The position numbers were made by a program, and so were the translations under genes. The notes beneath the pieces are model-generated. The model made no database searches. It saw only the letters and a program-made list of their open reading frames with translations, and was not told where the DNA came from. A stretch of DNA of 64,000 bases, from contig OZ249436.1 in NCBI GenBank assembly GCA_965235115.1, positions 2,358,001 to 2,422,000 on the forward strand, in the 5' to 3' direction. The stretch's first letter is position 1; every line of letters begins with the position of its first letter. The DNA is from Laetmonice hystrix. Taxonomy: Eukaryota. Shown here in pieces: positions 34,401-37,400 of the stretch.

Positions 34401-37400
34401 TGGCATCAGTCAATGGGATATAATGTAGTAGCATATGAAATCAGACAGTTGTCTCAGGCAATGTAGTGTATGACATTAGGTCTTGGCATCAGTCAATGGG
34501 ATATAATGTAGTAGCATATGAAATCAGACAGTTGTCTCAATGTAGTGTATGACATTAGGTCTTGGCATCAGTCAATGGGATATAATGTAATAGTATATGA
34601 AATCAGACAGTTGTCTCAATGTAGTGTATGACATTAGGTCTTGGCATCAGTCAATGGGATATAATGTAGTAGCATATGAAATCAGACAGTTGTCTCAGGC
34701 AATGTAGTGTATGACATTAGGTCTTGGCACCAGGCAGTGTGATATAATATAATCAAGTATTGCATTATTAGTGAAATATTCATATGGATTTAACCCGATT
34801 TTTAAACTATACCATGTTTTAGGTAACTACACTGGTCCAGGAAACATGGCTTGACGTCTGGGTGCTGTGAATAATGAGTAGCTTCTGTTCTTTAAGAATC
34901 CGTCACAGACTGACGGCAGCTGGCGTTTGTGGAGAGATTTCACTGTGACGGATGAACTCTGATCTTATCAACTCATTATCTCTGAGATTAGGATGTGTTA
35001 CTGGAACCCATCTAATCATAAATCTGAGATTAGGATGTGTTACTGGAACCCATCTAATCATAAATCTATACCCTCTACAGTACATCACCCCAGCAGATTA
35101 GGATGTGTTACTGGAACCCATCTAATCATAAATCTATACCCTCTTCACTACATCACCCCAGCACAAAGTCATTTACACTTATTTTCAGTGTGGAGCAAGA
35201 TTTGATGAAGCCAGCCAATGAGCTGGGGTTTATGGTTTCACTACCGCCCCCTCTGGTGAGAGGTGGAGGAACAAGACAACACGTTTTAATAAGACTACTC
35301 CGGAGCTTAGTTCAGGCGGATTTCTCGACAACATACACGGAGGCATGCATTGAATTCAAAGGGTCAATTTGGACTAATCCTCTTTAATCAGATAGTTTGT
35401 AATTTCCCATTCATTAGCTCGCTTTTAACTTTGTGATGTAAATAAATCATCTTTCTTGTAGGCATTCTTGGGATTTAGCCACAGGCCATCGATCTAGTGC
35501 AGCAGAAAAATGCTTTAGAATTGATCGATTGCATTTTTTTAAAAGGCAACCAACCGAAATTGATGAGAAGCGTTCGTATAATATGAGCGGCATGCCATCA
35601 GGAGTAGTTCCTCCGCTCCTCACCAGGGGCGCCCCGGACGCCCGTGACACGTTGCTCCGTCTGGCGGCGTGAGGCGTCAGATCGGGGATCATGTTTCAGT
35701 TTCAGGGACCTAAGGGGCCGACCAGTTTGATGGGGGGGGGGGGGGGGGTAGAAAGTTTTTTTTTCCAATTTTTTTTTCGGATCTGAGAATGTGAAAAAAA
35801 AAATTCTGCTTCAACAAATCTTCCTACCCCCACCTACCCCCATCCCCCCCATTAAAGTTAAATGGTCGGCCCCTAAGTAGGCCTAATGGATGACGGACGT
35901 GAATCGTTCAGGCTGAACCACGTCCACCATTAAGTAGTATAACACACTAGTCGGATCTTCTCTACTTACAGATAATAATTCAGAAAGTCATGGTGGCGAA
36001 CCTGTTGGAGACCTGTGTGTTTTCGTAAAGTCTGTGTTTTTAAATGTGTTTTAAGAAGAGACCACTGTTCTATTGGGTGCTACAATTGCCTGTTGTGTGA
36101 GAATACTAACATGTTTTGTGGTTTGGTACGGATGCAGGCAAGTGTTCAGTGTGGACAAAAAGTCCCATTCTGGCCACATGAAGGCGGTCAAACAAAGCGT
36201 GCTGGACGGCACGTCTAAGTGGTCAGCCAAGCTGGCCATCACAGGTAATCAGTGTACAGTGGACAGCCAAGTCCGGACTGGTCACTCCTTCACTCACTCA
36301 GTAACAAACACGGGGGGTCTGCGACATGTAGGCCTATGTCAAATATCAGCGATTATCCTAGAGTCATTCCTGGATTTAAAAAAATGGGTTGATTCAAAAT
36401 CTTTATTTTAAGTTGTTTAGTCATTATTTAACACGTTGTTTGGAATAGATATTGATTGAAATCTGAGGTGAGAGACAAAAGTCCGAGGAGTGGGCAGTCA
36501 CGGACTCTGAGACGTTGTTGTGTCATGAAGTAACCTGAATGTTATAATAAGTAGGCCTACACAGCATGTGACGCTTGAACTCTGACTTAGGCCTATAGGC
36601 CTACATTATAGGCCTATTCCGTGAAGTGTCTGTGTCTGTGTCACAGAGTCAGAGGTTCAAACTCTGAACGATCTGTATTCTCAAAGTAGCCGGTAGAAAG
36701 CGTCAGTCGTTTATTATTTCCAGGGTAGGCTACTGTAGGTTGATTGATTTGATGTTTGTCAAGATTTTCTCAAACATACCCCAGCCAATGTTGTTTGTAA
36801 CCCGTGGTCATATGACGGTTTGTACGGTCAGTGATTGGTCTGTGACGGCGTTAGGCCAATGTTGTCGTGAAGTCACGTGATCCGCTGGTGGCGCCGCCTA
36901 CCCGCAGCTGCCGTCACCTGAGAGTACTACACGTGACGTCATGGAAGCCGTCTGCTCAGCGTCTGCTCCGCTCGCTGCTGTCCTCCCTGGTCTCTGTGGT
37001 TGTTGTTATTTTATTGTACAGCTCCCATTTTGGTTTCTGATTCTGACCTCTGACCTCCAGCCGTGACCTTGACCCGTCACCTTCACCCCCTGTCAGTACT
37101 CCCACTCATTTGCTCCGCTCCGTTTCGGCTTGCATGCTACGTTCTTTGCTCGTGTTTTGCAGAAATGTGTTTAATATCGACTGCGATGCGCATATAGATT
37201 GCCTGGCGGTGATGAAGGGAAACATTCTGGAGGGCACCTCCAACTGGGGGGCAAAAGTTGCCATCACAGGTAGACACAGGTCAAGGCCGCCCCAAGGTCA
37301 TGACAGTTGAAAGCTTCATCCCAACTACCACCATCTTTTGTAAAAAATTTATTCCAACTATCCGCATTGCCTTTTTAGTAATATAACGATTACTTCTACA

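What the first reader, a model, noticed from the sequence alone, without database searches (positions are those of the whole stretch)
36138..37269. Mutually exclusive exon pair switches the charge of the UNC-13 C1-C2B linker
Seen: two exons (36138-36244, 37163-37269), both 107 nt, phase 2-1, stop-free, with good splice sites. They align without gaps at 15/35 aa identity. Including both or neither shifts the frame, so exactly one must be used. Exon A has 6 Lys and 2 Asp (net about +4); exon B has 2 Lys, 4 acidic residues (net about -2) and 2 Cys. Known: this segment joins the DAG-binding C1 to the first strand of the Ca2+/phosphoinositide-binding C2B, the module that gates Munc13 priming. Inference: a splice switch tuning membrane engagement or autoinhibition. 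From memory, Drosophila UNC-13 has an HID-containing version of this segment like exon B, which would make the pair old; this is unverified.
Basis: partly seen in the sequence, partly recalled or inferred. Interest (0 to 1): 0.85.

Follow-up and report, generated by a model that had tools for sequence, protein, structure and literature searches.

The report
Alternative exon pair in unc-13 linker
A synaptic vesicle-priming gene (unc-13) of an invertebrate carries two interchangeable copies of one small exon, a lysine-rich and a more acidic version, and the same arrangement is already annotated as alternative isoforms in insects and horseshoe crabs but has apparently not been studied.

Summary
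Exons 36138-36244 and 37163-37269 are both 107 nt, AG/GT-flanked and in the same phase. They share 15/35 residues, and each is the other's only match in the 627-Mb genome. Using both or neither gives an early stop.

The gene is a single-copy spiralian unc-13. The exon maps to the last C1-C2B linker helix plus the first C2B strand of Munc13-1 (PDB 5UE8).

The same layout (upstream exon, A, B, downstream exon) occurs in arthropod genomic contigs. RefSeq annotates A-only and B-only isoforms of one gene in Limulus and in Drosophila rhopaloa. Transcript assemblies splice in the B type.

The charge contrast is family-wide: A mostly +3, B mostly -4 or -5. It lies on one face of the predicted helix.

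Three things are not shown. No RNA run exists for this species. An AU test (p 0.52) leaves orthology of this exon B to the arthropod B exon open. Any effect on membrane binding is inferred only.

Six literature searches found no paper on this exon pair.

Verdict: a real, probably functional mutually exclusive pair, a new member of a known kind. Interest is moderate.

The parts
29294..29513 (+). unc-13 exon encoding the C1 (phorbol ester/DAG) domain
   Evidence: The ORF listing shows the C1 peptide and one search shows the splice sites. tblastn with Lineus longissimus unc-13 (P0169 residues 503-576) gives 97% identity.
30092..30212 (+). Constitutive linker exon ([12 protein letters not shown]...EIFELI), ending with CG of a split Arg codon
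   Evidence: Sequence. It is 93% identical to the Lamellibrachia and Lineus proteins. As a query it returned 2914 proteins at E<=0.001.
36138..36244 (+). Exon A: lysine-rich version (net +4) of the last linker helix plus C2B strand 1
   Evidence: It scores 79.7 bits on the A-type HMM against 41.8 on the B-type HMM. It is 34/35 identical to the Solemya velum protein. It aligns to 5ue8_A positions 132-166.
36245..37162 (+). 918-nt intron between the two alternative exons
   Evidence: This is too long for steric exclusion. Comparable gaps of 651-1470 nt occur in four metagenome loci.
37163..37269 (+). Exon B: less basic version (net -2, 2 Cys) of the same segment
   Evidence: An open copy with the same AG and GT contexts, 28/35 identical, occurs in a related organism (P0003). 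It scores 53.0 bits on the B-type HMM against 39.2 on the A-type HMM. It groups with P0003 and the Lamellibrachia exon at 99/90.
39329..39470 (+). Constitutive exon continuing the C2B domain ([26 protein letters not shown]...)
   Evidence: Sequence. It is 94-98% identical to the Lamellibrachia and Lineus proteins.

Best explanation
Exons A and B are a tandem-duplicated, mutually exclusive pair in a single-copy spiralian unc-13 gene. Each mRNA takes one of them.

The 107-nt length enforces this at the protein level, because both or neither gives an early stop and probably nonsense-mediated decay. Which exon is chosen is presumably set by cell-type-specific splicing regulators.

The exon encodes an amphipathic helix at the end of the C1-C2B linker and the first beta strand of C2B. 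The hydrophobic face and the strand are kept in both versions. The polar face changes from lysine-rich (A) to neutral or acidic (B).

The inferred consequence is a change in how strongly the basic side of the C1-linker-C2B module sits on the acidic plasma membrane. That would alter vesicle priming or release probability in the neurons that choose B.

Shown: the exon anatomy, the frame lock, the homology, the presence of the same architecture and of A-only and B-only isoforms in arthropods, and the family-wide charge contrast.

Inferred: use of exon B in this species, the helix geometry, and every functional effect.
For: Anatomy and frame lock.

Uniqueness in the genome.

An old duplicate rather than a fresh copy: dN 0.52 and dS 0.93 between A and B.

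Exon B kept elsewhere: P0003, from a related organism, has it open with the same splice contexts at 28/35 identity. The Lamellibrachia satsuma gene model P0139 splices a B-like exon between the same neighbours, and that exon groups with the window's exon B at 99/90.

Same layout elsewhere:
- Of the 278 stored proteins examined, 17 models hold A then B and none holds B then A.
- Four of the 34 metagenome loci hold A then B as 107-nt AG/GT exons 651-1470 nt apart. L034 also carries both flanking exons.

Alternative use annotated elsewhere: Limulus X4 (A) against X5 (B), both 739 aa; D. rhopaloa X3 (A) against X2 (B).

B type spliced in transcripts: a Calanus glacialis Trinity transcript, P0102; Logan contigs of 7272, 4364 and 6199 nt that encode 1976, 1259 and 1950 aa; and contig L035, where the three exons are contiguous.

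Selection on arthropod-type B exons: median dN/dS 0.13, from 17 usable of 55 pairs.

Charge: 63 unique B segments run from -5 to 0, with 41 at -4 or -5. The 101 unique A segments have a mode of +3 (55 segments). The switching positions 8, 12, 15 and 19 fall on one helical face. The conserved positions 3, 10, 14, 17 and 21 fall on the opposite face.

Structural context (passages read):
- The linker forms four helices packed against H1, C1, C2B and MUN (PMC5344669).
- In simulations the linker is part of the membrane-contacting surface in the perpendicular orientation.
- Single Lys-to-Glu changes in C1C2B alter priming or release probability (PMC8648301).
Against: There is no transcript evidence for this species.

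Between the window and P0003, exon B differs at 7 of 35 residues, while 8 of the 11 intronic codons just upstream are identical. This comparison therefore does not show that the exon is better conserved than its flank. I could not get the DNA to compute dN/dS.

The window's exon B is much less acidic (-2) than arthropod B exons. It lacks their Pro at position 7 and their Glu at positions 15 and 18.

The AU test does not reject placing the window, P0003 and Lamellibrachia B exons with the A exons (delta lnL 0.27, p 0.515).

Whether Lamellibrachia also has an A exon is unknown.

Some lineages have only one copy: L005-L010, L020, L022 and L037.

The A/B rule used for the charge tables looks at positions 8, 10-12, 14, 15 and 18, so those tables are partly circular.

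Both structure models are of low confidence (mean pLDDT 47.5 and 51.2).

No linker residue has been named or mutated in the papers I read.
Confidence: 0.72

Rival explanations
1. Exon B is an unused or decaying duplicate (pseudo-exon) in this species, and only exon A is spliced in.
For: There is no RNA evidence. Exon B has diverged from the arthropod B consensus. It differs at 20% of residues from the P0003 copy, while the adjacent intronic codons are 8/11 identical. A stop-free stretch of 35 codons is not rare by chance. The exon B donor (gtagac) is weak.
Against: The frame is open and AG and GT are intact in two organisms. All seven differences from P0003 fall outside the positions that are invariant across the family: 3, 10, 24-26, 28, 31 and 35. 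A B-like exon is spliced into the gene model of the distant annelid Lamellibrachia and groups with this exon at 99/90. dS between A and B is 0.93, so an unused copy would have had ample time to break. The exon B polypyrimidine tract is better than that of exon A.
Confidence: 0.13
2. Exon B is used mainly as the entry point of a shorter unc-13 isoform that is driven from an internal promoter and lacks C1, rather than as a straight swap for exon A in full-length protein.
For: Drosophila RefSeq models P0256 and P0266 start at the first residue of exon B. P0259 joins a different 5' exon to it. The A-B intron of the window holds a GC-rich stretch with CACGTG and TGACGTCA motifs about 230-300 nt upstream of exon B.
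Against: The window's exon B has no start codon at its beginning. Full-length B forms with the upstream linker exon exist in Drosophila, Limulus, ticks, crustaceans and Lamellibrachia: 32 of the 278 stored proteins have B spliced on both sides. No alternative 5' exon was identified here.
Confidence: 0.1
3. The second open frame resembles exon A by chance and is not an exon.
For: None beyond the short length.
Against: It is the only other match in the 627-Mb genome and lies 918 nt from exon A, with the same length, phase and splice dinucleotides. It is conserved in P0003.
Confidence: 0.01

Closest known systems
Arthropod unc-13 alternative exon pair as annotated in RefSeq (Limulus polyphemus isoforms X4/X5; Drosophila rhopaloa X3/X2; D. 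simulans against D. sechellia X16/X17)
   Same: The position in the gene is the same, between the ...EIFELIR exon and the V-ICAQGL exon. So are the 35-residue segment, the 107-nt AG/GT exon where DNA was available, the A-then-B order, and a more basic A against a more acidic B.
   Different: The window's exon B has D-C-D-A-H-I-D instead of D-P-D-T-H-I-D. It has Ala and Lys where arthropods have Glu at positions 15 and 18, and its net charge is -2 rather than -4 or -5. Common origin is not resolved.
Rat Munc13-1 C1C2BMUN (PDB 5UE8) and the isolated C2B domain (6NYC)
   Same: Exon A aligns over its full length to 5ue8_A positions 132-166 (38.8 bits), and exon B to 133-166 (16.4 bits). The C2B construct begins at exon position 16. 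The segment therefore corresponds to about residues 660-694, if the chain starts at residue 529 as the paper says. This numbering is inferred.
   Different: All vertebrate sequences retrieved here are A-type only. No vertebrate B-type appeared among the rows listed, which is not proof of absence.
Second copies in mollusc gene models (Elysia crispata P0083, Mytilus coruscus P0091)
   Same: Two tandem copies of the same exon-sized segment sit inside one unc-13 model.
   Different: Their second copies score as A-like (B minus A of -20 and -25 bits) and fall on the A side of the tree on long branches. This exon may therefore have duplicated more than once.
Other mutually exclusive exon pairs in presynaptic or channel genes (for example SNAP-25 exon 5a/5b; recalled, not checked here)
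   Same: Homologous exons of equal length that swap a short structural element while keeping the fold.
   Different: A different gene and element. Nothing about regulation or phenotype is known for the unc-13 pair.

Membership tests
UNC-13/Munc13 priming proteins | C1 domain, then a helical linker, then C2B, then the MUN domain, in that order | tested here: met
   tblastn of the Lineus and Lamellibrachia unc-13 proteins aligns 24-27 exon-sized pieces in order along 22.3-63.9 kb of the window. Relatives carry PF00130, PF00168 and PF06292. Exon A matches 5ue8_A.
Mutually exclusive exon cluster | Neighbouring exons of equal length and phase with splice sites | tested here: met
   Both exons are 107 nt, AG...GT, in the same phase.
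Mutually exclusive exon cluster | Sequence homology between the exons | tested here: met
   15/35 aa without gaps. They are each other's only hit in the genome.
Mutually exclusive exon cluster | Both or neither disrupts the reading frame (or another exclusion mechanism exists) | tested here: met
   A+B gives a stop 11 codons into exon B. Neither gives a stop 8 codons into the next exon. The 918-nt intron rules out steric exclusion.
Mutually exclusive exon cluster | Transcripts of this organism contain exactly one of the two | not testable with these tools
   No RNA holder was listed. The three runs laid are genomic contigs that run through the introns. In other species the feature is met: Limulus X4/X5 and D. 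rhopaloa X3/X2, and the transcripts P0102 and L035.
Arthropod-type B exon of unc-13 (D-P-D-T-H-I-D ... L/I-E-G-T) | Better fit to a profile of B exons than to a profile of A exons | tested here: met
   53.0 against 39.2 bits. The profiles were built without the window, P0003 or Lamellibrachia.
Arthropod-type B exon of unc-13 (D-P-D-T-H-I-D ... L/I-E-G-T) | One clade with arthropod B exons to the exclusion of A exons | tested here: inconclusive
   The free tree splits A from B at 95/86 with the window's exon B on the B side. The AU test does not reject moving it to the A side (p 0.515). There are only 35 columns.
Arthropod-type B exon of unc-13 (D-P-D-T-H-I-D ... L/I-E-G-T) | Strongly acidic polar face (D8, D12, E15, E18) | tested here: inconclusive
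   The window has D8 and D12 but A15 and K18, with net charge -2 against a mode of -4 or -5.

The most novel reading that the evidence does not exclude
The A/B exon choice is an ancient switch, present at least in the protostome ancestor. It re-charges the exposed face of the last C1-C2B linker helix and so sets, neuron by neuron, how firmly the basic side of UNC-13 sits on the plasma membrane. It would be a splice-encoded setting of priming and release probability. Vertebrates lack it and may have replaced it with paralogous Munc13 genes.
Probability: 0.25. Interest if true: 0.75.

Novelty: new member of a known kind. Interest (0 to 1): 0.5.

Why it matters
The C1-C2B module of Munc13/UNC-13 is where DAG, Ca2+ and phosphoinositide signals are turned into changes of vesicle priming and release probability. 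Single charge reversals there have strong and opposite effects (PMC8648301, passages read).

A naturally occurring, frame-locked exon swap next to C2B changes several charges at once. It is present from chelicerates and insects to this spiralian. It offers a ready-made, genetically tractable variant, for example in Drosophila, which has both exons. Such a variant could test how the linker contributes to membrane orientation and synapse-specific release properties.

Work on unc-13 isoforms in the papers I saw deals with alternative N-termini, not with this exon.

For genome annotation, the pair explains why many gene models wrongly contain both copies. Seventeen of the 278 stored proteins do.

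Tried and rejected
RNA evidence. The look-up of sequencing runs with exon B listed no RNA holder. The three runs listed (one sample, one study) were laid. They are genomic contigs that cross the introns, for example one piece covering 35845-38034, so they say nothing about splicing. They show no differences inside either exon. With about 9 differences in 2078 nt of the surrounding contig, this is uninformative.

This was not available.

dN/dS of exon B against the P0003 organism.

Structure prediction of the natural Limulus A and B isoforms. Both models are poor (mean pLDDT 51.2 and 47.5). They agree only on a helix, short break, helix, strand pattern over the exon. I did not use them for fold searches or surface analysis.

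Inverted repeats that could form competing RNA structures. Thirteen pairs were found in 4.2 kb. They include 36524-36541 with 37417-37434, and 37162-37178 with 38977-38993. There is no way here to tell them from chance and no conservation data.

The bacterial promoter scan of the A-B intron is not applicable to an animal gene.

Earlier findings of this scan: nothing was returned.

Literature. Six searches (and, for catalogues of mutually exclusive exons, 36 and 40) found no paper on an unc-13/Munc13 mutually exclusive exon or on the 'C1-C2B linker'. [quoted passage not shown] The 2013 Drosophila catalogue of mutually exclusive exons and the Kassiopeia database were not readable here and may list the pair.

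Exon B as a fresh duplicate was rejected, because dS between A and B is 0.93.
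Full report
WHAT IS IN THE SEQUENCE

Exon A is 36138-36244 and exon B is 37163-37269. Each is 107 nt, preceded by AG and followed by GT.

Each has a single stop-free frame. Exon A gives [35 protein letters not shown]. Exon B gives [35 protein letters not shown].

They align without gaps at 15/35 residues and 63/107 bases. Codon positions 1, 2 and 3 are identical at 21, 25 and 16 of 35 sites. 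The charge counts are as stated: A has 6 basic and 2 acidic residues, and B has 2 basic, 4 acidic and 2 Cys.

The upstream exon (30092-30212) ends in CG, and the first base of either exon makes an Arg codon. The downstream exon starts at 39329 and continues [14 protein letters not shown]....

Joining the exons by coordinates gives four outcomes:
- A only and B only stay open.
- A+B stops 11 codons into exon B.
- Neither stops 8 codons into the next exon.

In six-frame searches of the whole 627-Mb assembly, each peptide found only itself and the other exon (E 0.0135 and 0.032). The pair is therefore not a chance resemblance, and the genome has a single unc-13 of this kind.

WHAT GENE AND WHAT ORGANISM

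The surrounding open frames spell the C1 domain, the linker, C2B, MUN and C2C of UNC-13.

The unc-13 proteins of the nemertean Lineus longissimus and the annelid Lamellibrachia satsuma align exon by exon along the window, mostly at 60-98% identity (49-100% across all pieces). Exon A is 34/35 identical to the bivalve Solemya velum protein. The window therefore comes from a spiralian (lophotrochozoan) animal. I did not try to name it.

Exon A aligns over its whole length to chain positions 132-166 of rat Munc13-1 C1C2BMUN (5UE8). The isolated C2B construct 6NYC begins at exon position 16. Exon B aligns to the same place more weakly. The paper on 5UE8 says that the construct starts at residue 529. 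It also says that the C1-C2B linker forms four helices packed against helix H1, C1, C2B and the MUN domain (PMC5344669, passages read). By inference the exon corresponds to about residues 660-694, that is the last linker helix and C2B strand 1.

IS EXON B A REAL EXON?

No RNA run of this species was listed, and the three runs that hold the exon are genomic. The argument is therefore comparative.

(i) A related organism. A word-indexed search of 5.8 billion proteins with exon B found one protein, P0003. It is an open frame read from a 2.4-kb genomic contig of a related organism. It contains [35 protein letters not shown], which is 28/35 identical, preceded by ...FCR and followed by GR as in the window. 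AG, GT and the frame are therefore kept.

The similarity extends 11 codons into the upstream intron (8/11 identical) and then stops. Because a single indel would end a protein-level match, this does not calibrate neutral divergence, so I cannot claim that the exon is better conserved than its flank. The seven differences do avoid the family-invariant positions, which is weak support for constraint.

(ii) A distant annelid. The Lamellibrachia gene model P0139 splices a B-like exon (GVFAVGADTHIAGLETVKQNVLAGTSNWAAKVAIT) between the same two neighbours. In a tree of 51 exon peptides it groups with the window's exon B and P0003 at 99/90.

(iii) Age of the duplication. dS between A and B is 0.93, so the duplication is old and an unused copy would probably have broken.

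THE SAME PAIR ELSEWHERE

An HMMER scan of 1.84 billion representative proteins with exon B gave 15 hits at E<=0.001. A profile of B-type peptides then gave 363 hits, of which 120 were listed.

Across the 278 stored proteins examined:
- 32 have a B-type segment spliced on both sides.
- 28 have an A-type segment spliced on both sides.
- 17 gene models contain A followed by B, from cockroach, butterflies, ant, Tribolium, Limulus, a crab and a mayfly.
- None has B followed by A.
- 3 have two A-like copies: Opisthorchis, Elysia and Mytilus.

Cluster members show that RefSeq annotates the two as alternatives of one gene:
- Limulus X4 (A) and X5 (B), both 739 aa.
- Drosophila rhopaloa X3 (A, 3204 aa) and X2 (B, 3207 aa).
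- D. simulans A, and D. sechellia X16 and X17 B.

B is spliced into real transcripts:
- a Calanus glacialis Trinity transcript (P0102);
- Logan contigs that are almost fully coding;
- contig L035, where the upstream exon, the B exon and the downstream exon are contiguous.

DNA from 34 metagenome loci shows the exon as 107 nt, with AG and GT at the inferred borders in 36 of 38 exon copies. The 2 exceptions lie on the spliced contigs L035 and L038. Four loci carry A then B, 651-1470 nt apart. One of them (L034) has both flanking exons, exactly as in the window. Arthropod-type B exons evolve under purifying selection: median dN/dS is 0.13, from 17 usable of 55 pairs. Several loci have only one copy between the flanking exons (L005-L010, L020, L022, L037), so the duplication is not universal.

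HOW OLD IS THE WINDOW'S PAIR?

Profiles built without the window, P0003 or Lamellibrachia score the window's exon A at 79.7 (A) against 41.8 (B) bits, and exon B at 39.2 against 53.0. P0003 scores 42.5 against 48.0, and Lamellibrachia 49.1 against 49.6.

The free tree splits A from B at 95/86, with the window's exon B on the B side. An AU test does not reject moving the three spiralian B exons to the A side (delta lnL 0.27, p 0.515). The alignment has only 35 columns.

The mollusc second copies are A-like. The single-copy exons of L005-L010 share 'NVF' and 'LEGTSNW' with the window's exon B, so those features may be ancestral.

A common origin with the arthropod B exon is therefore plausible but open. 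Repeated duplication of this exon is a live alternative.

LIKELY MECHANISM

Shown: the frame lock. Inferred: everything beyond it.

The charge contrast is family-wide. The 63 unique B segments have net charge from -5 to 0, with 41 at -4 or -5. The 101 unique A segments have a mode of +3 (55 segments) and a range of -2 to +4. My A/B rule uses some of the charged positions, so this table is partly circular. The tree split does not depend on that rule.

Position by position, A has K at 7, 15, 18 and 27 where B has P, E, E and K/N, and B has D at 8 and 12. On an ideal helix, positions 8, 12, 15 and 19 lie within 60 degrees of each other. The residues kept in both types (F3, H10, M/L14, V/A17, V21) lie on the opposite side. 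This is the pattern of an amphipathic helix with a constant buried face and a switchable exposed face.

AlphaFold models of the Limulus A and B isoforms both give helix, break, helix, strand over the exon, but they are of low confidence (mean pLDDT 51.2 and 47.5).

In Munc13-1, simulations put the linker in the membrane-contacting surface of the perpendicular, Ca2+-independent orientation. Lys-to-Glu changes at K603, K720, K706 or R769 change priming or release probability in opposite directions (PMC8648301, abstract and passages read). No residue of this exon is named there.

My best reading is that choosing B weakens the basic, membrane-facing side of the C1-linker-C2B module and shifts priming or release probability. 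In the window the switch is milder (+4 to -2, with D8 and D12 but A15 and K18) than in arthropods.

WHAT IS KNOWN AND WHAT IS NEW

The pair exists in public annotation for arthropods.

Searches for 'unc-13' or 'unc13' with 'mutually exclusive', for 'Munc13' with 'mutually exclusive exons', and for 'C1-C2B linker' found no paper that describes it. Neither did a search on unc-13 isoforms with C2B in Drosophila. The hits concern the human UNC13A cryptic exon or unrelated uses of the words.

Papers on unc-13 isoforms that I read in passages treat alternative N-termini (PMC9282427). Catalogues of Drosophila mutually exclusive exons that I could not open may list the pair.

I therefore file the window's pair as a new member of a known kind. 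It is a spiralian instance of an unc-13 exon pair already annotated, but apparently unstudied, in arthropods.

VERDICT

The architecture, the location, the old age and the charge contrast hold. Expression in this species, orthology across phyla and function do not yet.
- Confidence that the two exons are functional mutually exclusive alternatives here: about 0.7.
- Interest: 0.5.

Noticed in passing
window 31363-34748; 40414-42157; 45592-46741; also 43947-44596 and 47369-47816: The unc-13 introns are packed with long minisatellite arrays. Examples are a 79-nt unit x 42 copies, 41-nt units over 1.7 kb, and a 30-nt unit x 38 copies. Similar repetitive open frames fill 3000-11300, 16800-19700, 51850-53050 and 55100-56290.
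   Followed up: no
window about 36860-36945 (intron between exons A and B): A GC-rich stretch with two CACGTG boxes and a TGACGTCA palindrome lies about 230-300 nt upstream of exon B. It could be a regulatory element or an internal promoter. No test was made.
   Followed up: no
P0256, P0266, P0259 (Drosophila ananassae, D. biarmipes, D. eugracilis RefSeq models): Short unc-13 isoforms begin at the first residue of the B exon, or join another 5' exon to it. They therefore lack C1. In flies exon B is also an entry point for truncated isoforms.
   Followed up: partly
P0083 (Elysia crispata), P0091 (Mytilus coruscus): Mollusc gene models hold two tandem copies of the exon. The second copy is A-like and very divergent. 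This hints at independent duplications of the same exon.
   Followed up: partly
L005-L010, L020, L023 (metagenome contigs): These contigs have a single copy of the exon between the flanking exons. It is of a mixed type that starts NVFKVD/EVFKVD and has M-E/K-Q-V-K plus LEGTSNW, so it shares features with both the window's exon A and exon B. It may represent an unduplicated state.
   Followed up: partly
L035 and L038 (metagenome collection): These contigs have the upstream, alternative and downstream exons directly adjacent, so they are spliced, RNA-derived sequences. L035 carries a B type and L038 an A type.
   Followed up: partly
window 36524-36541 with 37417-37434; 37162-37178 with 38977-38993: These are imperfect inverted repeats (18 and 17 nt, 82-83% complementary). 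The first brackets exon B and the second covers its acceptor. They could act as competing RNA structures, but 13 such pairs occur in 4.2 kb.
   Followed up: no
P0015 (Opisthorchis viverrini model): The linker exon plus the A-like exon are repeated twice with identical sequence inside one low-quality protein model. This is probably an assembly or annotation artefact.
   Followed up: no
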